A stretch of DNA of 63,509 bases, the filler included, from Licmophora abbreviata (lineage: Eukaryota): NCBI GenBank assembly GCA_900291995.1. It is 11 parts of 11 records of this genome, joined end to end, with 100 filler letters (N's around TTAATTAATTAA, not from the genome) between each part and the next. Parts side by side here need not be neighbours in the genome. Positions count along the whole stretch, not along the records: positions 1 to 9,797 come from OLMU01005630.1; 10 more parts are not named here. One strand, 5' to 3'. Position 1 is the stretch's first letter; the number at the start of each line of letters is the position of its first letter. The notes under the pieces were generated by a model. That model was not told the DNA's origin, did no database searches, and saw only the letters and a list, made by a program, of their open reading frames with translations. The translations under genes were made by a program, and so were the position numbers. Shown here one piece after another: positions 1-63,185 of the stretch.

Positions 1-2852
1 GGATGCTGCCGATGGACTTTTACGGGTTTGTGTGAGACACTCGGTGGAAGCTTCCCGCTAAGAGACGAGCCCATCGTTGACCCAGGCCGTGGCGCAGAGG
101 GCTCATCTTCGTCTTTCGGTCCAAAATCGTAAGGTACCAGCTTGGGACCCTCTCCGTCTTTGCCGCTCTCCGGAGGAGCCCATTCTCCTTTGAAATCTAG
201 GTCTTCCGGAAGCGTCTCTCCCTCAAGTGGATTCTGCGGTGGTTCGTTTCCAACACCAAAAGCCGAAATGTCCCCTCCACCTCCGTCCAAACCTTGCCCA
301 TACATTTCTGGTGGAGATAATGACGGTCCCGTGTCCGATCCACCTTGAGGGGGCGAGATTGCGCTCCCTCCAGGTGGTTGTTCCATTCGTGGGCCCCCGT
401 CGGGTGCAGCATCATAGGAAGAAACGTCTCCATTCATACCATAAGACGCTGTGTCGCCGTTCATACCGTACGATGCTGTGTCGCCGTTCATACCGTATGA
501 TGATGTATCCCCGTTCAAACCGTATGATGAGGTATCCCCGTTCATACCGTATGATGAGGTATCTCCGTTCATACCGTATGATGAAGTATCTCCGTTCATA
601 CCGTATGACGAAGCATCACCATTGGTACCATAGGACGACGACATTCCACTATCTCTTTCAGGCTTTCCTTGCCCAGACTTGAAATTGTAGGGGCTAGGAC
701 CCATTCCAGGTCCAAAACTGCCCTTACTCGCACCCGGACTGGCAGAAGAAATCGATTCCTCACCCATGAGTGACCCACTGTCCTTGAAATCAAACGGTTG
801 GACACCAGGACCCCCACCCGGTCTCGGACCACCTCCGTTCATACCATAGGGCGGCATGCCCCCATTCATTCCGTAAGGCGGCATTTCCCCGTCCATACCA
901 TAGGGCGGCGGCATTTCCCCATAATTACCATAGGGTGACATGTCTCCGCCGTACGGGTCCCCATCTTCTTCTTGTCCAGATTTGAACATATACGGACTGG
1001 GGCCCATTCCAGGTCCGGGACCAGTTTTACTTGCACCAGACATTCCCATGTTCGATTGGTTTGGGGGTGGTCTATCTCCATTCATACCATAAGGTGACGC
1101 GCCCATGCCTGATCCGCCTTGCGGCGCAGAGGGACCTCCTCCTCCAGGCGGTGGTCGCATCCTCGGACCCTCATCTGGACGGTTGCCATACGAGGACCTA
1201 TCTCCATTCATGCCATAAGACGATACGTCTCCGTTCATGCCATTAGAGGACCTGTCTCCGTTCATACCGTACGACGATTGATCTCCGTTCATACCATTCG
1301 ATCCTCCATCCCCATTCATACCATATGAAGTATCACCATTCATACCATAAGACGATGTATCTCCGTTCATGCCATAAGACGTGTCACCATTCATGCCATA
1401 CGACGCCGTATCTCCATTCATTCCATAAGACGATGCATCTCCATTCATTCCATAAGAAGGCATTCCACTGTCTCGTTGAGGCTTTTCTTTTCCAGACTTG
1501 AACATGTAAGGGCTAGGTCCCATACCGGGTGCAAACCCACCAGCGCCGGGGGGCGATTTCATGCCTGACTTCGATCCATCTTGCGGCGGAGGGCCTCCTT
1601 GAGGCGACGGCCTAGTTTGTCGAGGTGAAAAGGACTCCGAGCTGGGGCCTTTTGCTGGCCTGTAGCCACTACCGTTGACACCAGAAGACGACATCGACCC
1701 GGCTGGAGGAGCGCTTCCTTTCGGTGGATACTGCGGCGACGTGCGAGCACTTCCGTTAACACCAGAAGACGGCGTCGACCCAGGTTGCGGCGCTGACGGT
1801 GCACTTCCTTTCGGAGGGGCCTTGCTATCGCCGAAACTACCCCTTCTGGGACCCTGCTGCGATGCATCACCGCTTCCGTTTACACCAGACGACGGAGTCG
1901 GTCCGGCCGGCGGAACCGACGGAGCGCTTCCTTTGGGTGGCATCTTGCTCTTCCCATATGACGTGTATAGGTCCGGATTAACTCGATTCGTATCCGTTTC
2001 CTTACCCCCACTTTGAGTCCAGCCTCTCGTGGAGATGCCCATGCTCGGTCCCCCCTGCGACGGCGGCCCGCTTCCCTTGGGGGGTGGCGCCCTGTCCTCA
2101 AAGTTGTAAAGTTTAGGACCCTGCTTTGGTCGTCCACTTCCGTTCAAACCAGAAGACGGCGGTTGTCCGCCCTGTGGTGGGCCTCCTCTCGGTGGCGGCC
2201 TGGCCTGCGTGTATATCTCCGAGCTGGTCTTCGAAGTATTTGCACCGCCACCCGCTGGCCAACCTCTGTTGGACGGCGGTGGTCTGGAACCGAGCTGCGA
2301 TGATTGCTGATCAGACGGCTGGTTGGTCTTCGGCTTGGCCTCTCCCCCTTGTGGATTCTCTGGGGACCACTTTCCAGAGTTTCCAAGAGACAGGTTGCCG
2401 ATATTTGAGGACGAACGGGGGCCGGATTGAGTGGGTCTCTCTGGTGGTGTCCTCTTCGAAAATGAAAAAATATCCATCACATTCGGGCCCGATAGTTTCG
2501 ATTCCCCTCTGTTCGGAGAGCCCTTCGGAAAAGACGGTCTACGCAGCCCTGCAAAAGGGTTCCCGGGCCCCGACGAGCCGTCAGCAGGGGGCGTTTGGTT
2601 CATTGGAGCTCCACTGTCTTCGCCTTGTTGGCTACTCTCCTCTGGCCCGCTGCTAGACTCTTCGTTCCCACCATCTGACTCTGGGAAAGGGTCGCTGGGG
2701 TCGGACTGCATGTTCCAGCCGATTCTGTTGCGTGGAAGAGCCATGACAGGTCTGCTGTGGGCGCCACTGCGAAACGTAAACGTGAATCCAGCGGCAGGCC
2801 GAGGCCAAGCGAGAGCCATCAGCAGCGGGACAGCAAACATCGAACGAGTCAT
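1..2852 (-). CDS. Plastid-targeted low-complexity repeat protein 1 (Gly/Ser/Pro/Tyr-rich, prion-like); 3' end runs off the window
   Basis: Not in the ORF track because it has no stop in the window. ATG at 2852 reads MTRSMFAVPLLMALAWPRPAAG|FTFTFRSG. Translated segments are open down to base 3, and no track ORF ends in this frame (~950 codons). Contains many SYGMNGD repeats, 3x GMGPSPYxFKSG and 3x PPKGSAP...SSGVNGS. The + strand ORFs 451-633 and 1675-2016 are its antisense shadows. Confidence 0.8.
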   Translation of the reverse strand, partial: MTRSMFAVPLLMALAWPRPAAGFTFTFRSGAHSRPVMALPRNRIGWNMQSDPSDPFPESDGGNEESSSGPEESSQQGEDSGAPMNQTPPADGSSGPGNPFAGLRRPSFPKGSPNRGESKLSGPNVMDIFSFSKRTPPERPTQSGPRSSSNIGNLSLGNSGKWSPENPQGGEAKPKTNQPSDQQSSQLGSRPPPSNRGWPAGGGANTSKTSSEIYTQARPPPRGGPPQGGQPPSSGLNGSGRPKQGPKLYNFEDRAPPPKGSGPPSQGGPSMGISTRGWTQSGGKETDTNRVNPDLYTSYGKSKMPPKGSAPSVPPAGPTPSSGVNGSGDASQQGPRRGSFGDSKAPPKGSAPSAPQPGSTPSSGVNGSARTSPQYPPKGSAPPAGSMSSSGVNGSGYRPAKGPSSESFSPRQTRPSPQGGPPPQDGSKSGMKSPPGAGGFAPGMGPSPYMFKSGKEKPQRDSGMPSYGMNGDASSYGMNGDTASYGMNGDTSYGMNGDTSSYGMNGDTSYGMNGDGGSNGMNGDQSSYGMNGDRSSNGMNGDVSSYGMNGDRSSYGNRPDEGPRMRPPPGGGGPSAPQGGSGMGASPYGMNGDRPPPNQSNMGMSGASKTGPGPGMGPSPYMFKSGQEEDGDPYGGDMSPYGNYGEMPPPYGMDGEMPPYGMNGGMPPYGMNGGGPRPGGGPGVQPFDFKDSGSLMGEESISSASPGASKGSFGPGMGPSPYNFKSGQGKPERDSGMSSSYGTNGDASSYGMNGDTSSYGMNGDTSSYGMNGDTSSYGLNGDTSSYGMNGDTASYGMNGDTASYGMNGDVSSYDAAPDGGPRMEQPPGGSAISPPQGGSDTGPSLSPPEMYGQGLDGGGGDISAFGVGNEPPQNPLEGETLPEDLDFKGEWAPPESGKDGEGPKLVPYDFGPKDEDEPSAPRPGSTMGSSLSGKLPPSVSHKPVKVHRQH
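425..640 (-). repeat. 27-bp coding tandem repeat (YGMNGDTSS)n; degenerate copies also at ~830-945 and ~1190-1465
   Basis: + strand unit ccgttcataccgtatgatgaggtatct, ~7 copies. Confidence 0.9.
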
Positions 2853-3831: not shown

Positions 3832-6800
3832 TTACTTGTAGCTGTTCATTTCGAATGTCTTGGTGTTGAAAGACCCGCTGTTGGACCCAGATGCCGGCGG
3901 AAACACGTAGTCGCCCTTGTTCGCGTCGGGACGCTCCTCGACTCTAGTGCTGCCTTTCACGCGGCTAGCGAATGTGTTCATGGCTGCCTGGTATGGCTGT
4001 TCAGTAGCACATACCCTGTCCACCTTTGGTTTCTTTCCTCTTGTCGCACCTGAGAAGCTCGACATGGCTCCGTGATACGGTTGTTCCGGAGACCACGCCC
4101 GAGCCGTCTGTGGGATCCCACCTCGCAACGGTTTTCTTGGTCCGTCTACTAGACGGCCACCAGGGGAGCCACCGTAAGCACTCGTCTTCGACACAAGTTT
4201 CCGAGACGAGTTTCCGATTGCACGACTCGGTGGCGAGGAAATGACTCCTCTCTCTGGGTCTTTTCTTGTCACACTACGAGCGGGAGGCTTTACGTTCAAC
4301 CCGGGTGGGAACGCTGACATGGACTGCCGTGCATGTTCCCATGCCCGGTTGGCCTTGGCTCGCACCCCCATAGCAGGGTTCTTCGCATCCTGTTTCACAA
4401 GGCCACCAGAAGGGTTCAGCACGGGACTCATTCCCCGAAGAGGTTTTCTCGGCGCAGAAGCTTGCTGAGCCGTGGATCCAAGCCTACGTCCAGCGAAAGC
4501 TTCCATGGCCCTAACAAGAGGTTGGCCCGTGCCAGTTCGGGGTTTCCCTCCTCTGAGCGGCGTCTTTGGTGGTCCTGAGCGGTAGCGTTGTTTCGGTCCG
4601 GACCGAGAATAGTTGACGGTCGTTCCACCCGCAAAACTCGACATGGCTTGCATATATGGCTGTTCAGGTGTCCCGACGCGGTCGGCACGCGGGTTTCGCC
4701 AAGATCCAGCGAACGCCCGTCTAGCTTCACGCTGCTCCACGTATGCGTCTACCTGATCTGCTACCTCCTCGATATAAGCAAGATGCTCTTTGCCCGCTTT
4801 GGCGGCATCACTGATCTCTGCGATATATCCTTCTGCCATGGGCGACGCTTGATCAGCAGCGGGGGGAGAGTAAGCATCTCGTGCCGCTGCGTTCGACAAG
4901 GCAGGTGCGGCAGCAGAGGTGCTCATGCTGTCAAGGTAGCCTCTACCCTTGGCTGCCGTCTTCGGCTTTCCTCTCGCGGGCATCTTTTTCACTGGGCTGC
5001 CACCGAGCGCCGTAAGGTAGTCTCCGCTAGCGGCCGCTGGTGTAGATGTCGTAGCAGGAGTAACAGGAACAGCATTAGGGGATGCGTGTGAAGCTGGCCC
5101 TGTTGAAGTGGAGGAGGGAGGTGTCGCAGCAGAGGTGCCCATATTGTCAAGGTAGCCCATACCCTTGGCCGCCGTCTTCGGTTTGCCTCTAGCGGGCATT
5201 TTCTTCACTGGGCCGCCACCCAGTGCCGTGAGGTAGTCGCCTCCCGCCGGAGTGTTCGGCCCGGACGCCGGAATCGACGAGAAGGCAGGAGCAGCGGGAG
5301 CAGCAGCGGCACCTGACCACGCTGGTGTCGCGACACTGCTCATGTTGTCCAGGTAGCCTCTACCCTTGGTCGCCGTCTTCGGCTTGCCTCTGGCAGGCTG
5401 CTTCGCCACTGCACCTCCACCGAGTGCCGTGAGGTAGTCGCCTCTGGCCGGAGTCGACGACAAGGCGGGGGCAGCAGGAGCGGCGCCCGACCACGCCGGT
5501 GTAGCGACACTGCTCATGTTATCAAGGTAGCCTCTACCCTTGGTCGCTGTCTTCGGTTTGCCTCTGGCAGGCTGTTTTGACACTGCACCTCCACCGAGCG
5601 CCGTGAGGTAGTCGCCTCCGGCAGGAGTGCTTGGTCCGACTGCCGGTGTCGACGACCAGGCAGAAGCAGCTGGAGCTGCAGGTGTGATCGTCACAGCACT
5701 GCCCATGTTATCAAGGTAGCCTCTACCCTTGGCCGCAGTCTTTGGCTTGCCTCTGGCAGGCTGCTTTGACACTGCACCTCCACCGAGCGCCGTGAGGTAG
5801 TCGCCTCCGGCAGGAGTGCTTGGTCCGACTGCCGGTGTTGACGACCAAGCGGAAGCAGCCGGTGTTGCAGCACTTCCCATGTTATCGAGGTAGCCTCTGC
5901 CCTTAGTCGCAGTCTTTGGTTTGCCTCTAGCAGGAATTTTCTTCACAGGACCTCCACCTAGTGCTGCGAGGTAATCTCCTTCGGCAGTTTTGCTCGTAGA
6001 GGCCGCCGCTGTCGACGACCAAGCAGGAGCAGCCTGCGTGCTCGACCTCGCCGGCGTCGCAACAGCACTACCCATGTTATCAAGGTAGCCTCTGCCTGCG
6101 GCCGCCGTCTTTGGCTTGCCTCTCGGAGGCTGCTTCAATACTGGACCGCCACCGAGTGCAGATAGGTAGTCTGCTCCAGCAGGATTGCTCGAGACGGCGA
6201 CCGGCGGAGAGATGGCAGCAACAGCCGGAGGAACACTTCTGACACGAGGAGGCGTTCGGGTCAAGGCCGAAAACTCGGGAAGGGGGGCATTCTGTGGATC
6301 TGCCATGAAGACATGCACTGACTGCGCGACGCCCTTCAAGTAGGAGAGGTAATCCTTTGCAGAGCTCACAGTGCCCTCCAAGTCGGACAAGTAGTCCATA
6401 GCTTCCACCGGAGTACCGGCTGGACTCGCTGCGACTGCGGTGCCTCCACCGTTCAAGTGTGCAAGCTTGGACCTGACGTCGTGGGCAAGTTGCTCCATGT
6501 AGTTCAGATAATCCATCGCCGAAAGGGCGGCCTTTTCAACATTCGCGAGATACTCCCTTACTTCCGCCGGGTTTTGGAGGTCAGGAAGATCAGCTCGTCC
6601 GCTGCTGAGCGATGGCGGTGGTGATCCCGGGGTCGATTCGAGATCTACTAGATAGGCTCTCACCACGGTCGCTACCTCCTCAAGATACCCAAGATACTCT
6701 TTCGCTGTTTCTGCACCAGCAGCGATCTGGTTGAGGTATCCACACGCCAATTTGAAACCTTCCTGTTCTGACTGGGACATCTGTCCTGCCATATCCATAT

Positions 6801-6984
6801 CGGAAAGAAGTCCACCGCCGACAGAAACTAAGCTTTTGGTAAGAACCTTCAGGTCCATGGCTGAATTGGCAAAGACAGACGCTGATGTCTTGACATACGA
6901 CGGAGGTCGCTGGACAAAGGCGGCTGCTCCGCCAAGGGCGCAAATTACGAGCATCGCCAGGGGCCTTGACATGGTCGATCTCAT
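3832..6984 (-). CDS. Plastid-targeted repeat protein 2 (1050 aa; 7x DYLxALGG-PARGKPKT-GYLDNM)
   Basis: Long ORF. Presequence MSRPLAMLVICALGGAAA|FVQRP. Four helical YLxx[LIV]...YLxY[LM]ExVA repeats, seven Ala/Pro/Lys-rich repeats, and C-terminal QPYxxAMxxF motifs. Confidence 0.88.
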   Translation of the reverse strand: MRSTMSRPLAMLVICALGGAAAFVQRPPSYVKTSASVFANSAMDLKVLTKSLVSVGGGLLSDMDMAGQMSQSEQEGFKLACGYLNQIAAGAETAKEYLGYLEEVATVVRAYLVDLESTPGSPPPSLSSGRADLPDLQNPAEVREYLANVEKAALSAMDYLNYMEQLAHDVRSKLAHLNGGGTAVAASPAGTPVEAMDYLSDLEGTVSSAKDYLSYLKGVAQSVHVFMADPQNAPLPEFSALTRTPPRVRSVPPAVAAISPPVAVSSNPAGADYLSALGGGPVLKQPPRGKPKTAAAGRGYLDNMGSAVATPARSSTQAAPAWSSTAAASTSKTAEGDYLAALGGGPVKKIPARGKPKTATKGRGYLDNMGSAATPAASAWSSTPAVGPSTPAGGDYLTALGGGAVSKQPARGKPKTAAKGRGYLDNMGSAVTITPAAPAASAWSSTPAVGPSTPAGGDYLTALGGGAVSKQPARGKPKTATKGRGYLDNMSSVATPAWSGAAPAAPALSSTPARGDYLTALGGGAVAKQPARGKPKTATKGRGYLDNMSSVATPAWSGAAAAPAAPAFSSIPASGPNTPAGGDYLTALGGGPVKKMPARGKPKTAAKGMGYLDNMGTSAATPPSSTSTGPASHASPNAVPVTPATTSTPAAASGDYLTALGGSPVKKMPARGKPKTAAKGRGYLDSMSTSAAAPALSNAAARDAYSPPAADQASPMAEGYIAEISDAAKAGKEHLAYIEEVADQVDAYVEQREARRAFAGSWRNPRADRVGTPEQPYMQAMSSFAGGTTVNYSRSGPKQRYRSGPPKTPLRGGKPRTGTGQPLVRAMEAFAGRRLGSTAQQASAPRKPLRGMSPVLNPSGGLVKQDAKNPAMGVRAKANRAWEHARQSMSAFPPGLNVKPPARSVTRKDPERGVISSPPSRAIGNSSRKLVSKTSAYGGSPGGRLVDGPRKPLRGGIPQTARAWSPEQPYHGAMSSFSGATRGKKPKVDRVCATEQPYQAAMNTFASRVKGSTRVEERPDANKGDYVFPPASGSNSGSFNTKTFEMNSYK
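4920..6180 (-). repeat. Seven ~165-210-bp coding repeats in repeat protein 2
   Basis: Recurrent + strand blocks catgttatcaaggtagcctctaccctt... and ccaccgagcgccgtgaggtagtcgcc... Confidence 0.9.
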
Positions 6985-7826: not shown

Positions 7827-9377
7827 CTAGGGCGCGAAACCGGACATCCGAGTGCCGTTGGCAAAAACGACCTTCCTCGCTTTCATGCTAACTGATGTCC
7901 TGGTGGGGGTGTAGCTAGTTGTCTCGCTTGTGTCGGCCGGGCTGCCCGCGACTGGTTTAGAAATAGCGACCCTCATACGTTCGGAAGTGCGCACCGTCAC
8001 CAACTTGCCATCCATACTGATAGCATCGGCGCTTGATTTCTCGTAGCTATCCGCAGATAGAGGAGAGAGAAAGCCCGCGTAAGCCTCCATATACGAGGCG
8101 CTCGGTTCCAGTGTCGCAGCACGTTCGTTCGCTGCAAGAAACGATGACCGTTTTGACACCCGAGTGGGATGTACGTCAGGCTTCCTTGACATCTTCCTCC
8201 AAGGATTGCCAGTCCGGCCAGAGGAAAGACCGTTGGGGGCCGCCACCATTGCTTCCAGCGGAAGTTTTGCGGCCTTCGGGGCACTCGTGGCTCGTTCGTG
8301 AGGAGCCATACTATCGGTAGGCCCACATCCCTGCGGTAGCAGTGTTACGCTATCGGTCGGCGCGGCTTTCTTTGCCATCGCGAAGTATTTCCTCATGTTT
8401 GACTCCGTTCGAGGCGGTCCCGAGACATTTCCATCCGTTCCAGACGCAGCGAATCCCGACATGGCCATTCCATGAGGCGTTTCGTTGGACGAAAAGGGCT
8501 TCTGCTTGAGCCTGACGGCTTCTGTCCTTGGAGCAACCCTCGAACGTTCGATGTATCCAGACGGGGCGCTACGATGAGTGGCCGTACTTGTCCGACTTGC
8601 AGGCAGAGAAGATAGCTCTCGTTCTGTTGTCTTTGGCGGTGAGCTCTTTGCGAGCGCGAAGTAGCTTCTCAGTGTTGAGTCCGTCCGACGTTTCGTGTAC
8701 GTTTTCCCGTCTCGACCGGATGCATCGAAGGCCGCCATGGCCCTTTCAAAGGGCGCATCATGCATTGAAAGTGTCTTTGGTTTAGCCCCCGCCATGGACG
8801 AGTTTCTCAGGGGTCTATTGGAAGACTCCATGGATCCAGCTGAAGCAGTGTTGCACGAAGATACCATGTTCGATTCACGCGGATGTGAGTTATCGGCTGG
8901 ATTTGTCTCTGTCGCCGGGGCCTTTAGAAGAGCAGAGCTATTCTTGATCGTCCCAGGCTCCAACTGAGGATTTGATCCCGTTCCTCTTTTCCTTTCGGAG
9001 GATACAAACGAAGACACCGTTCTGTGATACTGTAATCCATCGTTCGATGAAGACGTCCTTCGGTGCCCTGGCTCTATGGAATCAGGAGGAATCATTCTGA
9101 GATACGGTCGGATCTTCGACGAAGGCTGTCGCTCCATCTCCTTAGATGGTACACTGCTACTCTTTGGAAAGGAGAAGTCAACCCTTGCAGCCGACTGAGT
9201 TCCCGCGGACCTGTCCACAGCGACCGAATTGGTTTTTGGCGCGTCTCCCCTGAGCAGTTTCTTCAATCTCGCTTCTGACATAATCCTACGAAAGCAGGCG
9301 CCGGGAACAAGCGTAAACCCAGCTGCAACGTGAAGCAGCGTTGCTAGCAGCATCACAGCCTGCATCAACCGCATCAT
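7827..9377 (-). CDS. Plastid-targeted Ser/Arg-rich disordered protein 3
   Basis: ORF 7827-9440. Likely start MMRLMQAVMLLATLLHVAAG|FTLVP at 9377 (in-frame upstream ATG at 9437). Two repeats PF/HxxAMxxFxASGxDG...RTxSx[LM]RxYFAxAK. N-terminus paralogous to gene 4. Confidence 0.8.
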   Translation of the reverse strand: MMRLMQAVMLLATLLHVAAGFTLVPGACFRRIMSEARLKKLLRGDAPKTNSVAVDRSAGTQSAARVDFSFPKSSSVPSKEMERQPSSKIRPYLRMIPPDSIEPGHRRTSSSNDGLQYHRTVSSFVSSERKRGTGSNPQLEPGTIKNSSALLKAPATETNPADNSHPRESNMVSSCNTASAGSMESSNRPLRNSSMAGAKPKTLSMHDAPFERAMAAFDASGRDGKTYTKRRTDSTLRSYFALAKSSPPKTTERELSSLPASRTSTATHRSAPSGYIERSRVAPRTEAVRLKQKPFSSNETPHGMAMSGFAASGTDGNVSGPPRTESNMRKYFAMAKKAAPTDSVTLLPQGCGPTDSMAPHERATSAPKAAKLPLEAMVAAPNGLSSGRTGNPWRKMSRKPDVHPTRVSKRSSFLAANERAATLEPSASYMEAYAGFLSPLSADSYEKSSADAISMDGKLVTVRTSERMRVAISKPVAGSPADTSETTSYTPTRTSVSMKARKVVFANGTRMSGFAP

Positions 9378-9514
9378 CTTGAACAAACAGCTTTTTCTGT
9401 TGCGTTGATTTTTGATTTTGTCATTGTGATGATCCATCACCCATCACCCATCACTCGCGCCAGTTTTGAATTTCGAAATTGGAAGGAAATGTCAAGTGCG
9501 CGAGTAGAGATTCG

Positions 9515-9797: not shown

Positions 9798-9897
9798 NNN
9801 NNNNNNNNNNNNNNNNNNNNNNNNNNNNNNNNNNNNNNNNNTTAATTAATTAANNNNNNNNNNNNNNNNNNNNNNNNNNNNNNNNNNNNNNNNNNNN
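9798..9897. other. Artificial contig spacer (N44-TTAATTAATTAA-N44); identical spacers at 12674-12773, 17334-17433, 20675-20774, 26421-26520, 31357-31456, 39469-39568, 58852-58951, 60128-60227, 62157-62256
   Basis: Exactly 100 bp each, with a six-frame stop linker. Confidence 0.98.
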
Positions 9898-11422
9898 ATG
9901 GCCATGCGACCCAGGGTGTGATAAACTGCCTTTAGACTCTGACAAGCCGTCCTGTCGCTTCGGTGTCGTGCTCTTCGTGTGCGCGAATGAACTCCGCGAC
10001 GATGACCGGGCTGGAAGTCTCGCTGCCGCCGTCCCGTCCATCTCGGATGCTGCCAGCGACGGCAAGCTATCGTATGATGAAGTGCCTCTTTTCTTATCAG
10101 ACGCGATGGGAGGAACATTTCTAATCGACGACGGGCGAACGATCGACCCAGACTCAGACACGTTGCCATTCGGCTCTGGTGAGCTCCCTTTCGGCTTGGG
10201 TGCCGTCTTTTTCATTGGCGCAAAGAGACTCCTCAACGATGAGCCTGTGGGAAGCGCCGCTGCCGTCTCCTCATCCTTTTCGGAATCCGTCAACAAAGGT
10301 GCTTCTTCACTATTTGAAGTCCCTTGCTTCTCAGCCTCGCTGGAGTCAGAAGGAATACTCATGGTGGATGACGGGCGAGTACTCGACCCAGGCTTCAACA
10401 TGCTTCCATTTATACTCCCAGACATTGGCAATAAGCTTTCGTTTGGTGTCATGTTCTTTATGGGTGCCAAGTCCCTCTTCTGCGGTGAGACCCTTGGAGC
10501 TCCCGCCTCCACCATTCCATCCCTTTCGGATGCTACCAACGACAGCGATTGTTCGTGAGATGAAGATGGCTCCATCTTCTCAGCCTCACTGGAGTCAGAA
10601 GGAACACTCATGGTGGATGACGGGTGAGTACTCAACCCAGGCTTCATCACGCTTTCGTTTCTATTCGCAGACACTGGCAAGCTTTTGTGCGGTGTCATGT
10701 CCTTTATGGGCGCCAAGTCGTCACTCTTCTGCGGTGAGACCCTTGGAGCTCCCGCCTCCACCACTGCATCCCTTTCGGATGGTTCGTGAGATAAAGATGT
10801 CCTTTTCTTCTCATCCTGTGTAGAATCGGAAGGAATATTCCTGGTGGATGGTTGGCGAATAGTCGACCCAGGAATCATCACGTGTTCGTCATTATTCACA
10901 GATACTGGCAAGCTTTCTTTCGGTGTCATGCTCTCTGTTGGCGCGATGTCACTCCTCTGCGGTGTTCCCGTTGGATCTTTCGCTGCCACGTTTCCATCCA
11001 TTTCGGAGGATACCAACGAAGGTGAACTCTCGTGCGGTGGAGACGCCGCCTTTGTCTCAGCCTGAATGGAATCAGAAAGCGATTTTCTGGTAGACGATGC
11101 ACGAACATTCAATCCAGGCTCGGGTACGTTTTCTTCGCTGTCCGGTTCGCTCTCTTTAGAGTCTGCTACACATTCTTTGGAATCTGGCGCGCTAGCTTTT
11201 AGGTTCAGGCTCGTCGGCAAACTTTGCAAAGAAGAATTCATCGCTCACAGAAGAGGCGGACAGAGAATTTGGATGTAATTTTCGCATTTCTCCATTGAAC
11301 AGTTTCCTCAATCGCGCTTCTGAAAGAATCGTCCGAAGAGAGGCACTGCGAGGGGGCGTAAACCCAGTCGCAAGCGTTAGCCACACTGTCAGTAGCAGGA
11401 CAGCCTGCATGAACCGCATCAT
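9898..11422 (-). CDS. Plastid-targeted Ser/Pro-rich repeat protein 4 (apparent frameshift at ~11197-11200; 3' end in gap)
   Basis: ORF 11192-11422 (MMRFMQAVLLLTVWLTLATG|FTPPRS) joins ORF 9850-11241 if one A is removed from CCTAAAAGCT, giving ...EPEPKASAPDSKE. About five ~70-aa repeats (PGSSTRPSST..IPSDS..AEK...SE[RMK]DG...LAP[IM]KxxTP). Confidence 0.75.
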
Positions 11423-12080: not shown

Positions 12081-13392
12081 CTAGGAAGCCAAGCTCTGAA
12101 CCCTGGTCCCATCAATCCTAGACGACACAAACTCGGTCATGGCTCTAGCATAAGGCGATTCTACGGACGAAGCAAATGAAAACTCCGCCGGCTTGGGTTG
12201 ATGAGACCCGGGTGGAACATTGTTGAGAAACGGCTCGAGATTAGACCCTGCCACTGGCGCACCACCGCTCGGGCGCGCTGTGCTCGTGGCAAGTGCCGAT
12301 GTAGAGGTCGCGGAGTTCGCCGTCGAGCTCGCTACGAGAGCCGCCGTGTTCTTGATTGGTGTCAAGTTACGGGGTCCTGCAACCCTTCTCCCATCGATGC
12401 CGGACAGCATAAACTCTGCCATGGCTCTTTCATAGGGGGTTTCTACTCTCGATGCAAAAGAAGCCTGTTCTCGGTTCGCGGGCCCGGGATAGCCCGGTGG
12501 GACATTGTTGAGGAAGGGCTCCAGATTCGAACCTCCCCGAGGTGCTCTCACAGCTGGAAAATCAGCGCTGGTCGTAAGCGCGGAGCTGCTCTTTGTCAGG
12601 GTTGAGGCAAACAGGGACGTCTTGGTTGCGAAAGCTGGTTTCACGTTCAACCCTGATTTGATGGATCCGTGTGNNNNNNNNNNNNNNNNNNNNNNNNNNN
12701 NNNNNNNNNNNNNNNNNTTAATTAATTAANNNNNNNNNNNNNNNNNNNNNNNNNNNNNNNNNNNNNNNNNNNNTTGGCGGGTGCAGCCTCTTCCACTGCA
12801 GCCTCTTTCGGTGCAACAGCCGTGTCCTTGGCGCTGGTCTCCTTGGCAGTTGCACTCTTCTTGTTGGGTGCCAGCGTTTTGGCAGCAGTACCCGTAGTAG
12901 TAGCAGCAGCAGTGGTGGTGGCGCGTCTCGCTACCCTCCTCCCATCGATCCCCGAAAACAGAAACTCCAACATGGTCCTCTCGTAGGGCGATGCTTCCTT
13001 CGATTCAAATAAGCGCGCCAGATTCAAGCGAATGTCCTTGTAGTAAGAGCCAGGTGGGACATTAAAGAGAAACGGCTCACTGTCCGAACGCGGAGCCCTC
13101 TCTTTCGCCTGTGGTGGTGTAGTAGTCGTCGTTGTTACGAAACCACTACTCTCCGTGTTGCTCCCGTCGGAGATGATAGAAAGACCTTGTGTAGCATTCT
13201 GGTCGTATCTTTTTGACTGCTGCTGCTAGTAGCTGGGACGGACCCTGCTGCATGATGTGAGAAACTTCGTCCCTGCGAGCCTATAGAGCCACTGTTGATG
13301 AATGGAGCAAATTGTAGCGTGAATCCAGCCACAAGCTGTGACCCGCACAGAGCCATCAGAAGCGGAAGAACGTGTGCAGAGAGAATCAACAT
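12081..13392 (-). CDS. Plastid-targeted repeat protein 5 (spans gap 12674-12773; apparent frameshift at ~13210-13214)
   Basis: ATG 13392 MLILSAHVLPLLMALCGSQLVAG|FTLQF. Adding one A in CAAAAAGA links it to the frame RYDQNAT...EPFLFNVPPG...SPYERTMLEFLFSGIDGRRV. The same repeat (EPFLNNVPPG...PYERAMAEFMLSGIDGRRV) occurs twice more after the gap, in ORF 12081-12650. Confidence 0.75.
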
Positions 13393-22960: not shown

Positions 22961-25900
22961 ATGAGCCGAAAAGCAAAGATAATTTTAGTTTGTGTTTTGG
23001 CGGGAAACTTGGTACCAAGCACCAGCGGCGACAGTGTGCACGCAGAATCAAGGCTTCAACGAACGCGACCGATATCTGGGCGCCAGTCACACGAATGGGG
23101 GCATGCTATAGTAGGGTCTGTGACTTCAGTCGTCGCAGGAGCAACAGCAACAGCAACAACAACAACAAACTTGAACGACTGGGGCGATGCTACGGGTCAT
23201 GGCCGTGCACTCGCTAGTACTCGCCAACGGAAGGACGACTACGAAGAAGAGAGGGAACGGGATGCTTCTACTTCGGCACATGATCGCTACAACTACCTAC
23301 TGGATAGAGACGTGAATTATCGAGGGGGCAACAACGCAGCGACAATGGACGATGGTGATACTTATTTGGACGACGGCGAACGCATACGACGTGAGCACTT
23401 TTATCCTAGGCACGACCGGGAGCGAACTGTTGATACCGAGAAGACATTGGCGCCGACTGGTAGCCCATCAGAATCACCTCAACCGAGTGTGAGGCCATCG
23501 AGGGAGCCTGTAGAGTCTCTGGTCCCGACTAAAGTACCCGAATCGACTCTGGAGCCATCTTCGGCGGAACCCACTACGCTTCCAAGTCAACTGCCATCTG
23601 CTATACCATCCTTATTCCCAAGCGAACAGCCATCAATAAGGCTGACACAAACTCCGAGTGGTTTTCCGTCTGCCGGACCTAGCCGCAATCCGTCGGTGTC
23701 ACCAACAGCCGTTTCATCGGACGTGCCCTCGACTGGTATATCAGTGAGTCTGGCTCCGTCTGGCGTTCCGGTGATAGAGTCACCAGTTCCGTCAGAAATG
23801 ATCACTGGTTCTGGTGCACCGTCTGAAATCGTCGCAACCTCGTCCGCGCCAGCAGCTGCACCTCTCACAGCGTCGCCGTCACAGGCGAAGGGGGCGAGCT
23901 CCTCAACTCCGTCACCAATGGGAGCGACCACTTCACAAGCTCCGACGACTGGGACATCCCCAACGGATTGGGTGACAGCATCACCAGCGCCGACTGGCCC
24001 AGATCGTTCCGTCACGGCTTCACCTGCGCCAACAGGTGCGCTTTTCGTACCCTCAATGCCGACTCAGGGCCAGGCAGCTCTTTCGGACTCGCCCTCGACT
24101 CAACCGATGACTGCCATTACGAGTCCAACAGCTCTACCGATCGAAAGTGAATCCATGTTCCCAACGAGCGTACCAACGAAGTTAGGCTCGGAGGCTCCAA
24201 CAAGATTATCGCCCTCTGGCGGGCCCAGTGTCCGTCCTTCAGTGACACCTGAGCCGTCACGTACTCCATTACCCCCGATTCGTTCGTTCGCCCCGTTTGC
24301 GCCGATTGCAGCACCCTTCTCGCCAGTGAGTGCTCCTTCCGAAGTGGTGCCTGTACCAAATCCCAGTGGCGCACCAAGTTTTACCGAGACCGCTAGGCCC
24401 ACTGTTTATGCTGGTATCCGAGATTTTCTGGTTCTGGCGGCAATCACCACTGATGGATCGTTGAACGATCCCGAATCTCCACAATCCAAAGCCGTGGATT
24501 CTGTCCAGGCCTCCAACCCCGCCTTGGATCCCGACAATATTAGAGATCAGTTAGAGATTGTACAGAGATATTGCCTGAGCACACTTTTCTTTGCTCTTGG
24601 TGGTGAGAATTGGATTCGACCTGATGATTGGGTCAGTTCCGCCGACGTTTGCAATTGGTTCGGTGTATCTTGTGTGAGATCACTGGTGACGTCCGTCGTC
24701 CTTGACGCGAACGGGCTGCTCGGCAGTGTTATTCCGAAAGAGATACAAGTTTTGCCTCTTCGAGTACTTTCGCTCTCTGAAAATCAAATTGCAAGCCGGT
24801 TCCCAGACATATCTCGGCTCAATGAACTAAGGATACTGAATCTGTCCGTCAACGCGATGTCTGGTTTGATTCCTGCTTCCATTGCAGACCTCTCGAGTCT
24901 GAGTCAGCTGAATTTGAGCGGCAATGGCTTCGTCGGTGATATTCCTCAAGGCATGGGTGATCTAGTCAACTTGGAAGTCTTGGATCTTTCAAGTAATCAA
25001 TTTTTCTTTGAGCCAATTCCCACTTCCTTTGGGGCCCTCGTGAATCTGGTGGAGCTCCACCTGGGAGCAAATGACTTTAGTGGGACTCTTGGGACAGAGC
25101 TTTCATCGATGACAGCTCTAGAAGTGCTGGACGTCTCTGACAACTTTCTCGAAGGCCAGGTTCCGACCGCGGTATTTGAGCTGGTAACCCTGCGTGAGCT
25201 TGAATTGTCAATGAACGCCTTCACGGGGCAGCTGCCCGAGTCCTTGTCATCTCTGTCGGCGCTTTCCATCCTAAACGTGTTTGAGAACGCCTTCGATGGG
25301 ACAATACCTGATGTATTTGATTCACTGGTAGCACTGGAAGATCTCCACTTGAGCTATAACTTCATTGACGGTCAGATTCCGAGCTCATTATGGCTAAGAG
25401 ACAGCCTAGTTTCATTTTCGTGCTTTGCGAACGAGCTAACTGGGACTCTCCCAGAAGCAGTTAACCTGCCGCTCGTCCAGTTTCTGGAGCTCGACCAGAA
25501 TTTCCTTACCGGCACATTACCATGGACATTCATCGCGGGCCTCCAGAATCTGTTTGTATTGAATCTCGGCGAGAACGACTTTACTGGAACTATTCCAGCC
25601 GAGCTTGGATCCATCGATGTTGATACATTGCTGCTGTGGGGAAATCGGCTGGAGGGAACGATCCCAAAAGAGTTGGAAACTTGGAAAATCTCTATGCCAT
25701 GGGGCTCGGGCGGAATAGCCTATCTGGTCCCATTCCGGACACAATCTTTGACTTGAGCGATGTCCTCACGATTTTTGCTGCCGAAGGAAATTCTCTCAAT
25801 GGAACCATTTCAACGTCATTCGGAGACATGACCGTGCTGAATACCCTATCTCTGGGTGACAACTCTTTCTCAGGAGGCATTCCGACGGAATTGGGGCAGC

Positions 25901-26412
25901 TTGGTGCTGTGCTCTTCGACTTGCAGCTGCAAGGAAATGAACTCACGGGAACATTGCCAACAGAACTGAGTCAGTTGCAGGCGCTGCTTCGACTCAATGT
26001 CACACAACAACTCGGAAACGGCTTGACCGGTTCACTTTTGGACTTTTCACAGCTTACTGACCTCAAAATATTTGACGTGTCGTTGAATGATTTCACAGGA
26101 GACATACCAACGAATCTTAACGCCTTGACGTTCACGACCATATTGAACCTCAACTCGAATCGACTTTCCGGTCCGATACCATCTGAACTTGGACTCATGA
26201 TAGGCTTGGAGGAGGTTCGCTTGAGCGACAATAATTTGACTGGCAGTATTCCGAGCGAACTTAGCAATCTACTTCTCCTTCAGGTGCTGGATGCCTCCGA
26301 CAATACCTTGACGGGATCTATCCCCGTGTGCACGCTGCCAGAGATTAGCAGCGTCGAGGTGGACTGTGAGGAGGTCTTATGCCAGTGTTGTGAGGGATGT
26401 AGTGGCAGATAG
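22961..26412 (+). CDS. Secreted Pro/Ser/Thr-stalk leucine-rich-repeat protein (apparent frameshift at ~25675)
   Basis: Signal peptide, PS/PT-rich stalk, QRYCLSTLFF...W...CNWFGVSC cap and plant-type LxLxxNxLxGxIP repeats. ORFs 22961-25756 and 25636-26412 join by adding one G (KELGNLENL). Cys-rich end VDCEEVLCQCCEGC. Confidence 0.85.
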
Positions 26413-26883
26413 TAGAGTAGNNNNNNNNNNNNNNNNNNNNNNNNNNNNNNNNNNNNNNNNNNNNTTAATTAATTAANNNNNNNNNNNNNNNNNNNNNNNN
26501 NNNNNNNNNNNNNNNNNNNNCACTTTGTAATACAAATTATTTCGCAGAAAGTCATAAATATGGATGACCCTCTTTTTAATTTGCATCGCGCCGAAATAAT
26601 TTTGCGACACAAACTTGGATTTATCGACTGCAGTCGGATGACCATCACACATCGCTCTATTGGACGAACGTAAAACGAGAGGCGCTTGGTCTTTGAAAGT
26701 CACGAAAACAGACGCAGAGAAGGGTTCTTTGTGTATACGTAAGACTGCTGCGTACTAGAGCTAAGAGAGAAGCCTTCTCAGTTCAGTTCAGGGTGAAACG
26801 TCGACACATTGAGTCCTAGTCCGACGACACACGAGACAGGTCACTTGCAGTTTAAATTTCCACAGCAATCGACAATCCTCAGA

Positions 26884-29800
26884 ATGCACTCCTTCTCGAA
26901 AAGACTACTACTAGGAGTCGCTCTTTCCCTTCTCACGAACACTAGCAGAGCAGAACGAAACTTTACGGCACAGCAGCTACGGAGAATACTACCACAAGAC
27001 AACCGATATCATGTTTCCCAGTCAAGTATCGAAAGTGGTATAGCCGAAACGAACGACGATCCTCAAATGGCTACGGCTGCTGCAGGTCGAGTACTCTGGG
27101 AGCAAACTGACGATGAAATCAATGAAGACATTCGAGCTAGAGGTCACGGGGAGGATCCGGTCGAACGCAATGTGACGCACAACATCTTTGAGCGACCGAC
27201 GAGCACGCCAACGAGCGAGCCCACGTCGTCTCCGACCTTTGTGCCTACCCGAACAGAAACCGTGGCCCCGACGCGTCAGGAACCTCCCGTTGTCGCACCA
27301 GTTCTGCCGCCGCTCGCTCCGATCCGACCTAGTCCTCCTATTGTCGCACCAGTGCTGCCACCACTGGCGCCCGCGGCACCGGCCTCTCCTGTGGTTGCAC
27401 CTGAAACACTGGCGCCGACGTCGCCCAACGTCTCACCGTCCACGACACCGCCTTTTGCGCCCTTTGCTCCCGTTGGAGCACCCACGGTATCGAGTCCTAC
27501 GATAATAATATCTCCCGTGGCGCCATTTGCGCCGGTCGGCGCTCCTTCGGCGCCAACACAGCCTTCGATACCGCCGGTGGCGCCCATTGTTCCTGTGGAG
27601 GCGCCCACTGCTCCCATTGTAGCAGTGACAGGGGCTCCCTCTATTGAGCCAAGCATTGCGCCGCTGGCTATAGATACAAGTGCACCGTCCAATGCGCCGA
27701 GCGTTGCACCCGTTCTCGAAAATACCAGTGCACCGTCCAATGTGCCTACTGCATTGCCTGTGGACACTAGCGTCCCATCAAGTGGACCGAGTGCTGCACC
27801 AGTATTGATAGAAACTAGCTCCCCTAGTGGCTCACCATCTACTGCCGCGGCTCCTTCGACAGTCACGACACCTCCCGTGATTGCGCCGTCTTCACCAGTG
27901 GCGCCTGTTGCACCATCAGCGCCTGCATCGGCTCCATCTGCGCCCGTGGTTTCACAAGCTCCCTCGACCACAGGGACTGCTACCCCGAATGCGCCGTCAG
28001 GTGCGGCTCCTGTAACAGCCCGCCTGCCATCTTCGCCGGTCGCCTCGACCCCCACATCTGCGCCTTCTTTAGAACAGTTACTGACGGATACACTTACCGA
28101 TGATGGTAGTCTAACCGAGACTGGTACCCCCCAAAATCTTGCCTACTTGAATCTGCAAGCAACCAAACCCGACTTGGATCCAACCAATCCCGACGACGAG
28201 GAAGCAATTCTACAAACCTACGCGTTGAATACATTGTTTTTCAGCTCGGCGGGCAGTGACTGGAATGACAATACAAATTGGGGAACTGCCGAGCAAGAGT
28301 GTGACTGGGTGGGTGTAGAGTGTGATGACGGCAGTACGACTGTTGTAGGTTTGAATCTGACCTCCAATAATCTGGAGGGGGTGCTTCCGAGTGAATTGCA
28401 GGGACTCAGAAGTGTTCGTGAGTAGAATTGAATTCAATGGGAATTGTGCGGCGGGAAGACAAGTTACATGCGCGCTAACAATTGTTTGACCCGTCGTCAT
28501 CTCTGTGTTCTATCCTTAGGCACGATTGACTTTGACGATCACTTCCTGGAAGGGTCGGTTCCCCAGGCTTACCAATCCTTGACTCAGCTGCAATCGTTGA
28601 TTCTAAGCTTTGGCTTGCTGACTGGGCCATTACCCGTTGACCAAGGGACACTGATAGAGCTACGTGAGTATTGTTCTGCTGAATCCCCAATGGTGCTCGA
28701 ATCAAAACATAGCTTATCTCTCACACGTTTGTCCCGTTTCGCAGAGACGCTGGACGTATCGACGAACTTCTTATCTGGCGAGATACCAACACAAATAGCA
28801 ACCATGACGGCTCTGACGGATCTTCGGTTGGATTTCAACGAACTCACAGGGACTATACCCACACAGTTATCCGCTTTGACAGGTCTGGAACAACTCCGTC
28901 TGGATATTAACCAGCTTTCCGGCGAAATCCCGACAGAATTGGGGTTGTTGGTATTGCTGGGACAGATGCGACTCGATCAGAATCAGCTTTCTGGGGAAAT
29001 TCCAACCGAGCTCGGAAACCTGCTACTGTTGGAAGGACTTCGTCTGGAAACGAACTCCCTGAGCGGGGCGCTCCCTTCCGAACTTGGTGTGCTGCAGGTC
29101 TTGTCAGACTTTCGAGTTGCGGACAACTTCATGTCAGGAGAGCTTCCGACGGAAATGGGGTTGCTTTCGAACTTGTCGGTCTTAACGCTAGAACTACAAA
29201 GGACGCAGAATTCTGTGGGATTCCAGGGGCCAATTCCATCAGAATTGGGGAATCTAGTGGATTTAGAAGTGTTGCTGATTGGATCAAATACATTTTCGGG
29301 TGCTATGCCGTCTGAGCTAGGAAGACTTTTGAGCTGTACACTGTTGAGCCTAGCCAACACGGAAATTTCTGGTGAGATACCGACTGAAATTGGGGCTATG
29401 TCTAGTTTGCTGCGACTGGAGCTTGGGGCCATGCAGCTCAGTGGAGAGATTCCGACAGAACTGAACAATCTTCAGCTATTGCAGTTCATAGACCTGGGTT
29501 TGAACTCGCTATCGGGAGCACAGATACCGTTCGCATTTGGGTCCGGCCTATTCTCAGATCTCGAAGTTCTGAGCTTGGAGCGAAACCTGCTAGAAGGCTC
29601 GATCCCAAGTGGAATTGAGTCATCAGAAGCACTGGTCCTTCTGAATATTGCATTCAATAAGCTCACCGGATCTATCGCAACTGAGATTGGTCTGCTGACA
29701 AATCTACTGGAAATACAGTTGTGGGGAAATGTGTTGTCAGGTCCAATACCGAGTGAGCTGGGAAACTTGTTGAGCCTGCTGACCGTCGACCTTTCCGAGA

Positions 29801-30084
29801 ACCAGTTCCTTACTGGAACAATCCCCGAGTCACTCGGGAACTTGCTGGATCTGAAGCGACTCTCTCTTTACAACAACACATTCACGGGCGAGATCCCGAC
29901 ACAGTTGTCGAACTTGCTTGAATTGGAGGTCGGTCTGTTTTTCACGAATGAGCTCACAGGCACCGTTCCTGAGGGCGTATGCGACATTGCTCGAAACGAA
30001 AACTTGACCATTCTAGTAGTAGATTGCGCGGGTGATGACCCCGAAGTTCAGTGTGCCGCCGACTGCTGTTCGGAATGCTTATAG
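26884..30084 (+). CDS. Secreted Pro-rich-stalk LRR protein, paralog of the previous gene; introns 28418-28519 and 28664-28744
   Basis: Signal peptide MHSFSKRLLLGVALSLL; APxAP stalk; QTYALNTLFF..W..CDWVGVEC cap; GTGAGT..TAG and GTGAGT..CAG introns restore the LRR register; C-terminal VDC...CAADCCSEC. Confidence 0.88.
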
Positions 30085-43886: not shown

Positions 43887-49857
<5,971 letters not shown>

Positions 49858-58951: not shown

Positions 58952-59017
58952 GTGGAACAGCACCACCGGCACCACCGCCACCGTGCGCAGCCCGTCGATC
59001 TCAGCTCTGTACTTCAT
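58952..59017 (-). CDS. Bacterial acyltransferase-3 (OafA/YrhL) N-terminal fragment, third copy
   Basis: MKYRAEIDGLRTVAVVPVVLFH; truncated by spacer. Confidence 0.8.
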
Positions 59018-59061
59018 GGCGCGGGCCTTTTGGATGTCGAGTTGCTCATCATGTCGCTCGT

Positions 59062-60127: not shown

Positions 60128-60289
60128 NNNNNNNNNNNNNNNNNNNNNNNNNNNNNNNNNNNNNNNNNNNNTTAATTAATTAANNNNNNNNNNNNNNNNN
60201 NNNNNNNNNNNNNNNNNNNNNNNNNNNCGATCCGGCGTTGCGGCAGCGAGGCGATGTAGCGTTTGAGCGATGAAAGCACCATGACCGCG

Positions 60290-62156: not shown

Positions 62157-62256
62157 NNNNNNNNNNNNNNNNNNNNNNNNNNNNNNNNNNNNNNNNNNNN
62201 TTAATTAATTAANNNNNNNNNNNNNNNNNNNNNNNNNNNNNNNNNNNNNNNNNNNN

Positions 62257-63027: not shown

Positions 63028-63185
63028 TGGCTGACCTCCTTGAATTTGGGGGCAGCTTGTCAGGCGGATGCGGTGATCGCAAGGCGGGAGAGGCGGTGGA
63101 TCGGAGGAATTTGATCAAATTGTGATGGGGGCTGCGGACTGGCTCGACAATATCGCGGATGAAAGGGCTCTGAAGTGACGATCTA

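What the first reader, a model, noticed from the sequence alone, without database searches (positions are those of the whole stretch)
1..2852. Hidden ~950-codon gene with prion-like SYG repeats missed by the ORF track
Seen: a minus frame open from ATG 2852 to the window edge, with many SYGMNGD(T/A/V) units, 3x GMGPSPYxFKSG and 3x PPKGSAP..SSGVNGS. Known: [S/G]Y[G/S] Tyr stickers drive homotypic phase separation (FUS-type), and Tyr residues do so in PYCO1. Inference: the best self-condensing candidate in the cluster. I did not see the PYCO1 KWSP motif in the segments I translated.
Basis: partly seen in the sequence, partly recalled or inferred. Interest (0 to 1): 0.75.

Follow-up and report, generated by a model that had tools for sequence, protein, structure and literature searches.

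The report
Giant diatom plastid scaffold candidate
A diatom gene encodes a very large, probably chloroplast-targeted protein in which a long floppy arm studded with tyrosine repeats is joined to a conserved, unnamed helical domain, making it a candidate, still untested, for a link between plastid membranes and the CO2-fixing pyrenoid.

Summary
The frame is real: 950 codons without a stop, and the repeats change mostly at silent sites (pS 0.79, pN 0.13). It is only the front of the gene. The neighbouring contig overlaps by 26 bases in frame, giving one gene of at least 2,234 aa with one 83-nt intron. The protein has a diatom plastid-type presequence, about 1,650 disordered residues (a basic block, then an acidic block with 28 Tyr and 14 exact SYGMNGD units), and a C-terminal helical domain of about 440 aa. 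That domain has 64 relatives in no Pfam family; full-length ones are only 426-710 aa and 11 of 13 have plastid-type presequences. A modelled relative folds as a three-helix bundle whose best structural matches are BAR domains, at scores that may be generic. The gene is single-copy and lies beside a DPC2-like gene in a row of plastid-type repeat genes. Best reading: a membrane-anchored plastid scaffold whose sticker arm self-associates and contacts the pyrenoid. Location, expression, binding and condensation are all unshown.

The parts
3..2852 (-). Gene A, first 950 codons of exon 1 (exon 1 is 1,788 codons and continues on contig C5629; exon 2 there adds at least 446 codons and is open at that contig's end)
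2787..2852 (-). Predicted signal peptide, residues 1-22, ending AAG before Phe; shares PLLMA with the signals of cluster genes E and F
   Evidence: read by eye against the rule in PMC4329603; SignalP/ASAFind not run
2703..2786 (-). Predicted transit peptide, residues 23-50: Phe at +1, 4 basic and 0 acidic residues
1533..2552 (-). Basic disordered block, residues 101-440 (40 K+R, 16 D+E, 52% G+S+P)
2361..2372 (-). Single KWSP, without the following RGGS of the PYCO1 sticker
   Evidence: 1.1% of 5,000 shuffles hold one
1665..2156 (-). Four PPKGS[AG]P and four SSG[VL]NGS repeats
1053..1526 (-). Tyr module 1: GMGPSPYxFKSG header followed by 8-9-residue SYGMNGD-type units
783..1010 (-). Tyr module 2: same header, diverged PPYGM-type units
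408..707 (-). Tyr module 3: same header, units at an exact 9-residue period; old duplicate of module 1 (pS 0.79, pN 0.13)
1..80 (-). Start of a ~90-aa repeat that crosses the contig junction and recurs on C5629; bases 1-26 are the exact overlap with C5629; each copy carries a YLGS[IM] motif beyond the window edge
3832..6984 (-). Neighbour B, 1,050 aa, plastid-type presequence, 20 YLxx[LMI] motifs, DPC2-like (PF25195, E 2.9e-13, 50.6 bits, under the 70-bit cut-off)
7827..9437 (-). Neighbour C, 536 aa, plastid-type presequence, disordered, 2 P[FH]xxAMxxF motifs shared with B, E and F
9898..11422 (-). 5' part of neighbour D (presequence like C's; frame changes near 11250; continues on C5631, which the window omits)
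12081..12673 (-). 3' part of neighbour F (5' part on C5633, omitted from the window)
12774..13392 (-). 5' part of neighbour E (presequence with Phe at +1; continues on C5633); start position counted by hand

Best explanation
Gene A is this diatom's single copy of an unnamed plastid protein family. Shown: the gene, its repeats under selection as protein, the conserved C-terminal domain. Predicted: import into the plastid stroma; a long helix plus three-helix bundle followed by amphipathic helices. Inferred mechanism: the C-terminal domain oligomerises and sits on a plastid membrane (thylakoid most likely); the N-terminal arm, short in relatives but about 1,650 residues here, self-associates through regularly spaced Tyr and through its basic and acidic blocks, and uses a few short aromatic motifs (YLGS[IM] x2, KWVSMP x2, KWSP x1) to contact pyrenoid matrix or shell proteins. 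The result would be a tether that wets a membrane with condensate, in the manner proposed for SAGA1/MITH1 in Chlamydomonas, not a bulk Rubisco linker.
For: Single reading frame and join; 20 of the 62 relatives aligned run across the predicted splice junction. Selection on the repeats: differences among 19 units by codon position 70/18/587; modules 1 and 3 pS 0.79, pN 0.13. Plastid signal: own presequence and Phe/Tyr/Leu at +1 in 11 of 13 full-length relatives, sites picked by eye (rule). Conserved domain: 65 hits at E<=0.001, one bacterial repeat protein dropped; confident model, 220 residues at pLDDT>=90; top 11 structural matches all BAR-type, Z 11.5-13.1, rmsd 3.3-5.9 A; amphipathic stretch at residues 2005-2035, moment about 0.5, no transmembrane segment. 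Arm: 28 Tyr in residues 441-830; charge blocks (SCD -3.1 against 1.6+/-0.9, 1 of 1,000 shuffles as low). Pyrenoid link: DPC2-like neighbour built of YLxx[LMI] motifs; a similar SY[LMV][DN]x[LM] motif just behind the transit peptide in 4 of 13 relatives; genome has 8 PyShell matches, two of them halves of one gene; 7 of 7 large-subunit residues of the PYCO1 pocket kept.
Against: No direct evidence of location, expression, condensation or partners. The BAR likeness is at the level the tool calls common for helical bundles; Foldseek's best E was 0.039 with TM-scores of 0.14-0.26 by query length, and 0 of 31 aligned members hit a BAR family in Pfam. The model is of a relative (P0023), not of gene A; gene A's own single-sequence model is poor (pLDDT 52). 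The motifs are few and weak singly: WxSM in 4.6% and YLxx[LMIV] in 8.9% of 5,000 shuffles, and they were sought after the fact. None of the 62 relatives aligns to residues 1-1661, and 9 of 13 lack the SYL motif, so the arm is not what the family conserves. The family reaches Triparma; a related bolidophyte has no pyrenoid (PMC12351369), though Triparma itself was not checked. DPC2 match of the neighbour is under the cut-off.
Confidence: 0.35

Rival explanations
1. A general plastid architecture protein with no pyrenoid role: the conserved helical domain organises thylakoid stacks, girdle lamella, envelope or lipid droplets, and the long arm is a lineage-specific spacer or gel-forming addition, perhaps gained from the neighbouring repeat genes.
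For: Only the helical domain is conserved; the family reaches Triparma and a distant clade with different N-terminal motifs; a bolidophyte without a pyrenoid is described; A shares PLLMA in its signal with E and F, as expected from local shuffling.
Against: Repeats are under purifying selection; DPC2-like neighbour and shared YLxx[LMI] motif, also in 4 of 13 relatives.
Confidence: 0.3
2. One reading: a PYCO1-type linker that phase-separates by itself and condenses Rubisco as the main matrix scaffold.
For: Tyr-rich prion-like block; one KWSP and two WxSM; no clustered KWSP-type repeats elsewhere in the genome (7 scattered matches against 4 for the control pattern), so another linker may be needed; large-subunit pocket kept.
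Against: One KWSP cannot supply the sticker tetrad and lacks the GGS groove; small-subunit N105 is Ser and G137 is Ala here; acidic Tyr block; a large folded domain that PYCO1 lacks; neighbour B, with 20 repeated motifs, has far higher valency.
Confidence: 0.12
3. The 9-residue Tyr-Gly-Met-Asn-Gly-Asp units do not act as liquid stickers but fold into an ordered beta-turn solenoid, amyloid-like fibre or cross-linked elastic network inside the plastid.
For: Exact 8-9-residue Tyr period, nine spacings of 9 in module 3 less one of 19; stronger sequence constraint than loose stickers need; Asn-Gly turns (own knowledge).
Against: No bulky core residue other than Tyr and Met; flanks are 14% Pro overall; no structure was predicted for this part.
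Confidence: 0.1
4. A secreted or cell-wall/adhesive structural protein whose Tyr repeats are cross-linked outside the cell.
For: Signal peptide; G/S/P/Y/M-rich repeats recall extracellular elastomers such as resilin (recalled, not tested); high-confidence-independent plastid calls have a specificity of only 0.82.
Against: Phe at +1 and a basic, acid-free transit segment; same in 11 of 13 relatives and in all six cluster genes; no Cys in the first 950 aa.
Confidence: 0.1
5. The join is wrong: the window's frame is a separate gene and the helical domain belongs to another.
For: The join rests on a draft assembly and one 26-base overlap; no reads could be laid.
Against: The overlap is exact and in frame; a ~90-aa repeat begins in the window, crosses the junction and recurs beyond it; no stop and no second hydrophobic signal in 1,788 codons; relatives have a presequence upstream of the domain.
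Confidence: 0.03

Closest known systems
PYCO1 (Phatr3_J49957), Rubisco linker of Phaeodactylum tricornutum (PMC10288592)
   Same: Diatom plastid presequence; G/S/P/N/Y/M-rich prion-like repeats; Tyr as likely homotypic sticker; KWSP (one) and WxSM (two) occur.
   Different: PYCO1 is 592 aa, basic, mostly disordered, with six KWSPR/Q and five GTGYNP; gene A is at least 2,234 aa, has an acidic Tyr block, one KWSP without GGS, no GTGYNP and a conserved folded domain. No homology seen by eye; not aligned by program.
DPC2 (PF25195), Thalassiosira pseudonana pyrenoid matrix protein (bioRxiv 10.1101/2023.10.26.564148)
   Same: Neighbour B matches the profile in 5 stretches; B's YLxx[LMI] motif occurs twice in gene A and once in 4 of 13 relatives.
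   Different: Gene A itself has no DPC2 match; B is under the curated cut-off; that the motif is DPC2's functional element is my inference.
SAGA1 and MITH1 of Chlamydomonas (PMC11649565)
   Same: Proposed logic: a large protein that binds both membrane and Rubisco matrix and so makes membranes traverse the condensate.
   Different: Green lineage, different Rubisco and motifs; no sequence link tested or expected; gene A's membrane and matrix binding are unshown.
BAR / F-BAR / I-BAR membrane-shaping domains
   Same: Three-helix antiparallel bundle of about 180 aligned residues; 11 of the top 11 structural rows.
   Different: 3-11% identity, Z at the generic level, no Pfam BAR hit; first helix extends about 60 residues beyond the bundle; the defining curved dimer is not established.
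FUS-type prion-like domains ([S/G]Y[G/S] stickers; own knowledge)
   Same: 18 SYG motifs in a G/S-rich disordered region.
   Different: Strictly periodic units with Met-Asn-Gly-Asp, acidic and Gln-poor; no RNA-binding domain; plastid-targeted.

Membership tests
PYCO1 | Six tandem ~80-aa repeats each with KWSP[RQ], followed by GGS in the solved sticker | tested here: not met
   one KWSP in 2,234 aa, not followed by RGGS
PYCO1 | GTGYNP Tyr motif x5 | tested here: not met
   0 matches in gene A
PYCO1 | Large-subunit helix of the EW[AG]SMN type near the C-terminus | tested here: inconclusive
   two KWVSMP at residues 1421 and 1471 share only WxSM; 4.6% of shuffles hold one
PYCO1 | Basic, prion-like, mostly disordered | tested here: not met
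   prion-like block present (recalled frequencies) but acidic; whole protein pI 5.3; folded C-terminal domain
PYCO1 | Pyrenoid localisation, homotypic phase separation, Rubisco partitioning | not testable with these tools
   needs experiments
Diatom plastid-targeted proteins | Signal peptide, then F/W/Y/L at +1 and a basic transit peptide | tested here: met
   by eye: Phe at +1, 4 basic, 0 acidic in residues 23-50 (rule)
Diatom plastid-targeted proteins | SignalP/ASAFind high-confidence score | not testable with these tools
   programs not on hand
DPC2 (PF25195) | Profile match at or over 70 bits | tested here: not met
   gene A: no match in any of its three pieces; neighbour B 50.6 bits
BAR domain superfamily | Three-helix antiparallel bundle of about 200 residues | tested here: met
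   model of relative P0023; Z 13.1, rmsd 3.5 A over 167 residues to 8ceg
BAR domain superfamily | Sequence or significant fold similarity beyond a generic bundle | tested here: inconclusive
   Foldseek best E 0.039; no BAR family among Pfam hits of 31 members; profile search of PDB sequences best E 0.096, unrelated
BAR domain superfamily | Curved antiparallel homodimer that binds and bends membranes | not testable with these tools
   needs a dimer structure and liposome assays
Unnamed ochrophyte plastid helical family (this report) | ~440-aa helical domain with MxxVRSKL and YxWxDIE consensus | tested here: met
   best E 1.6e-44; 40 hits at E<=1e-10; gene A nests within the family tree (quick tree)

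The most novel reading that the evidence does not exclude
Diatoms and their relatives have a nucleus-encoded, BAR-like membrane-shaping protein inside the plastid, and in this species it carries a 1,650-residue phase-separating arm with pyrenoid motifs: one polypeptide that bends the pyrenoid-penetrating thylakoid and glues it into the Rubisco condensate, with YLxx[LMI] as a shared pyrenoid address of the whole gene cluster.
Probability: 0.12. Interest if true: 0.85.

Novelty: new variant of a known kind. Interest (0 to 1): 0.52.

Why it matters
In the papers read here, how Rubisco is condensed in diatoms that lack PYCO1 is stated as open, and no factor that drives a thylakoid through the diatom pyrenoid is named, although shell mutants disturb it. 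This finding gives a concrete, conserved, unnamed plastid family with short orthologues that can be tagged and knocked out in model diatoms, and a short motif to test as a pyrenoid address. If the family proves unrelated to the pyrenoid, it is still an undescribed plastid structural protein, and the Tyr repeats are a local elaboration of modest interest.

Tried and rejected
RNA support: no RNA holder listed; no reads were laid; this says nothing on expression. Homodimer prediction for the conserved domain of P0023: no verdict, alignment not used, controls not run. Word searches with the C-terminal domain found 0 and 1 proteins although 64 exist, which shows how weak those blanks are. Genomic loci of relatives: 594 pattern hits, 0 confirmed, so exon-1 length in the closest relatives is unknown. 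3' end of the gene: not on C5628 or C5627, no overlap, pattern found only on C5629. Atlas with P0023: no usable hit. Exact look-up of six window proteins: 0 of 6 in the collection. Six YLxxL-type pentapeptides in the PYCO1 immunoprecipitation peptide tables: 0 occurrences; only those six spellings were tried. Print: searches showed no paper on this family or on the motif (listings only; one search showed 25 of 515 rows, all off-topic); I recall a preprint on further PYCO proteins, which searches did not find, so the motifs may be described there. The family could not be mapped to Phaeodactylum or Thalassiosira gene numbers, so identity with DPC1/3/4, STROBE1 or an entry of the published interactomes is not excluded; bioRxiv supplements were not seen. 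Only named relatives among 20 clusters looked up: two Triparma laevis hypothetical proteins; one member labelled seryl-tRNA synthetase was disregarded. The careful tree did not finish; the quick tree was used.
Full report
Observation. The minus frame from ATG 2852 to the window edge is open for 950 codons with no stop, while the other five frames hold 19 to 35 stops; base composition alone gives about 1e-17 for such a frame. The repeats are as described: 14 exact SYGMNGD, 19 G[MLT]NGD, 3 GMGPSPYxFKSG, 4 PPKGS[AG]P and 4 SSG[VL]NGS. They are kept as protein: among the 19 units the differences fall 70/18/587 on the three codon positions (units were picked by protein pattern, which inflates this), and the two large modules, aligned whole, differ at pS 0.79 and pN 0.13.

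The gene is much longer. The window is a chain of contigs joined by spacers. Its first 9,797 bases are contig C5630; the end of C5629 overlaps them by 26 identical bases and carries the same frame for 848 more codons. A repeat of about 90 residues starts inside the window, crosses the junction and recurs beyond it. A phase-0 GT..AG intron of 83 nt then leads to a second exon of at least 446 codons, open at the contig end; the model is 2,234 aa without a stop. The 3' end was not found. Of 64 relatives blasted against the model, 62 aligned, 20 of them straight across the splice junction, and none upstream of residue 1662.

Organism and address. The genome has a red-type rbcL-rbcS pair and 8 PyShell matches, two being halves of one gene: a diatom with a shelled pyrenoid. 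Gene A starts with a hydrophobic stretch, then Phe, then 28 residues with 4 basic and no acidic residues, which fits the plastid rule of PMC4329603 (passages); the programs were not run. Of 13 relatives with their own N-terminus (426-710 aa), 11 have Phe, Tyr or Leu at the site I picked by eye, and all 13 have a net positive next 20 residues.

Anatomy. Residues 101-440 are basic (40 K+R, 16 D+E), 441-830 acidic with 28 Tyr, mostly 8-9 apart; the charge blocks are stronger than in all but 1 of 1,000 shuffles. A rough prion-like score from recalled frequency tables peaks at residues 482-541 (18.1) against -2.6, -8.0 and -11.0 for neighbours B, C and D. Further on lie two YLGS[IM] and two KWVSMP motifs, then a charged spacer, then residues 1700-2140, the conserved part. 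That part has 65 hits in a library of 1.84 billion proteins; one is a bacterial repeat protein and was dropped. No Pfam family is shared by more than 1 of 31 aligned members, and no solved relative was found. The only named members among 20 clusters looked up are Triparma laevis hypothetical proteins. Gene A is the only match in its genome and nests inside the family (quick tree). AlphaFold2 on relative P0023 with 57 rows gives a 124-residue helix and two shorter ones at high confidence, then lower-confidence helices. The 11 best of 48,161 chains are BAR, F-BAR or I-BAR domains (Z 11.5-13.1, rmsd 3.3-5.9 A), but the tool warns that Z under about 13 can be generic for helical bundles, and Foldseek gives no significant match. 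Residues 2005-2035 are amphipathic; there is no transmembrane segment.

Neighbourhood. On the same contig and strand lie B (1,050 aa, 20 YLxx[LMI] motifs, DPC2 profile E 2.9e-13 but under the cut-off) and C. Three more genes of the same style, D, F and E, follow on C5631-C5634, two of which the window omits; these contigs do not overlap, so their order is inferred from numbering and continuing frames. All six have Phe after the predicted signal; A, E and F share PLLMA in it. DPC2 is a pyrenoid matrix protein that interacts with Rubisco in Thalassiosira pseudonana (bioRxiv 10.1101/2023.10.26.564148, passages). A similar SY[LMV][DN]x[LM] motif sits just behind the transit peptide in 4 of 13 relatives of A; a distant clade has YGxS motifs there instead.

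Comparison with PYCO1 (PMC10288592: parts 1-4 of 6 of the main text, Table S1 passages, part 2 of 43 of Dataset S1). PYCO1 is basic, 592 aa, with six KWSPR/Q stickers that form a tetrad through GGS, five GTGYNP, and a C-terminal large-subunit helix. Gene A has one KWSP without GGS, no GTGYNP and an acidic Tyr block. This organism's Rubisco keeps 7 of 7 large-subunit pocket residues but has Ser for N105 and Ala for G137 in the small subunit, assuming the same numbering. No clustered KWSP-type repeats were found in the genome. Singly the motifs are weak: KWSP in 1.1%, WxSM in 4.6%, YLxx[LMIV] in 8.9% of 5,000 shuffles. It is not a PYCO1; it may borrow part of that logic.

Mechanism. Shown: gene, selection, conserved domain. 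Predicted: plastid import, helical bundle, amphipathic helices. Inferred: the domain oligomerises on a plastid membrane, the arm self-associates through Tyr and charge blocks, and sparse motifs contact matrix or shell, producing the membrane-matrix adhesion proposed for SAGA1/MITH1 (PMC11649565, passages). I give this 0.35. A plastid architecture role without the pyrenoid is almost as likely (0.3): only the helical domain is conserved, and a bolidophyte without a pyrenoid is on record (PMC12351369, passages; PMC6492006 passages say nothing on the point). A bulk Rubisco linker (0.12), an ordered or cross-linked repeat assembly (0.1), a secreted protein (0.1) and a false join (0.03) follow.

Novelty. 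Tyr-rich candidate linkers in diatoms are a known kind, and earlier notes of this scan list several in other genomes (unchecked, not support). What is new here is the fusion of such an arm to a conserved plastid family that I could not find named in Pfam or in nine paper searches, with a possible BAR-like fold. The family could not be mapped to model-diatom gene numbers, so it may already sit unnamed in published interactomes. Verdict: real, larger than reported, new variant of a known kind, interest 0.52.

Noticed in passing
window 3832-6984 (-): Neighbour B alternates two YLxx[LM] motifs about 60 residues apart, seven times, plus four P[YL]xxAMxxF motifs at the C-terminus; by valency and spacing it is a better Rubisco- or shell-linker candidate than gene A.
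   Followed up: partly
L010 778-2664 (-) (G000:C5891): A paralogue of B, about 620 aa, with the same N-terminal helical repeats and motifs but ending in a hydrophobic, transmembrane-like segment: a possible membrane-anchored DPC2-like protein.
   Followed up: partly
window 9798-9897 and later spacers: The window is a chain of contigs joined by N/TTAATTAATTAA/N spacers and omits some contigs (C5631, C5633), so genes D, E and F are broken in it and ORFs that run into a spacer are artefactual at that end.
   Followed up: yes
window 11196-11422 (-): Gene D's presequence frame stops after about 75 codons while the body runs in another frame: short intron, frameshift or assembly error, not resolved.
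   Followed up: no
window 12081-13225 (-) and L015: Genes E and F repeat a unit with [YF]L[NF]NV and PYxR[AT]MxxF..SG.DG motifs, also seen more weakly in C.
   Followed up: partly
P0013, P0027, P0025: Two relatives carry the helical domain followed by a second copy of its first helix (tandem domains); another has a G/N/F-rich low-complexity tail at the C-terminus instead.
   Followed up: no
L003 3-1340 (-), intron boundary: Many relatives from genomic contigs begin within a few residues of the same point, suggesting a conserved intron position in the family.
   Followed up: partly
window 44937-49857 (+): Two ORFs with pyruvate:ferredoxin oxidoreductase domains followed by flavodoxin/FAD/NAD domains: looks like a pyruvate:NADP+ oxidoreductase fusion.
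   Followed up: no
window 59000-63509: Short contigs at 57-65% GC with an acyltransferase-3/SGNH gene, unlike the rest; possibly bacterial contamination.
   Followed up: no
window 22961-30084 (+) and 33239-39520 (+): Two P/T/S-rich leucine-rich-repeat surface-type genes in tandem, and a 2,093-aa ORF with a trypsin domain and PT repeats.
   Followed up: no
L012 (G000:C5529): Plastid rbcS starts with GTG and has Ser and Ala at two positions that bind the PYCO1 sticker in Phaeodactylum.
   Followed up: yes
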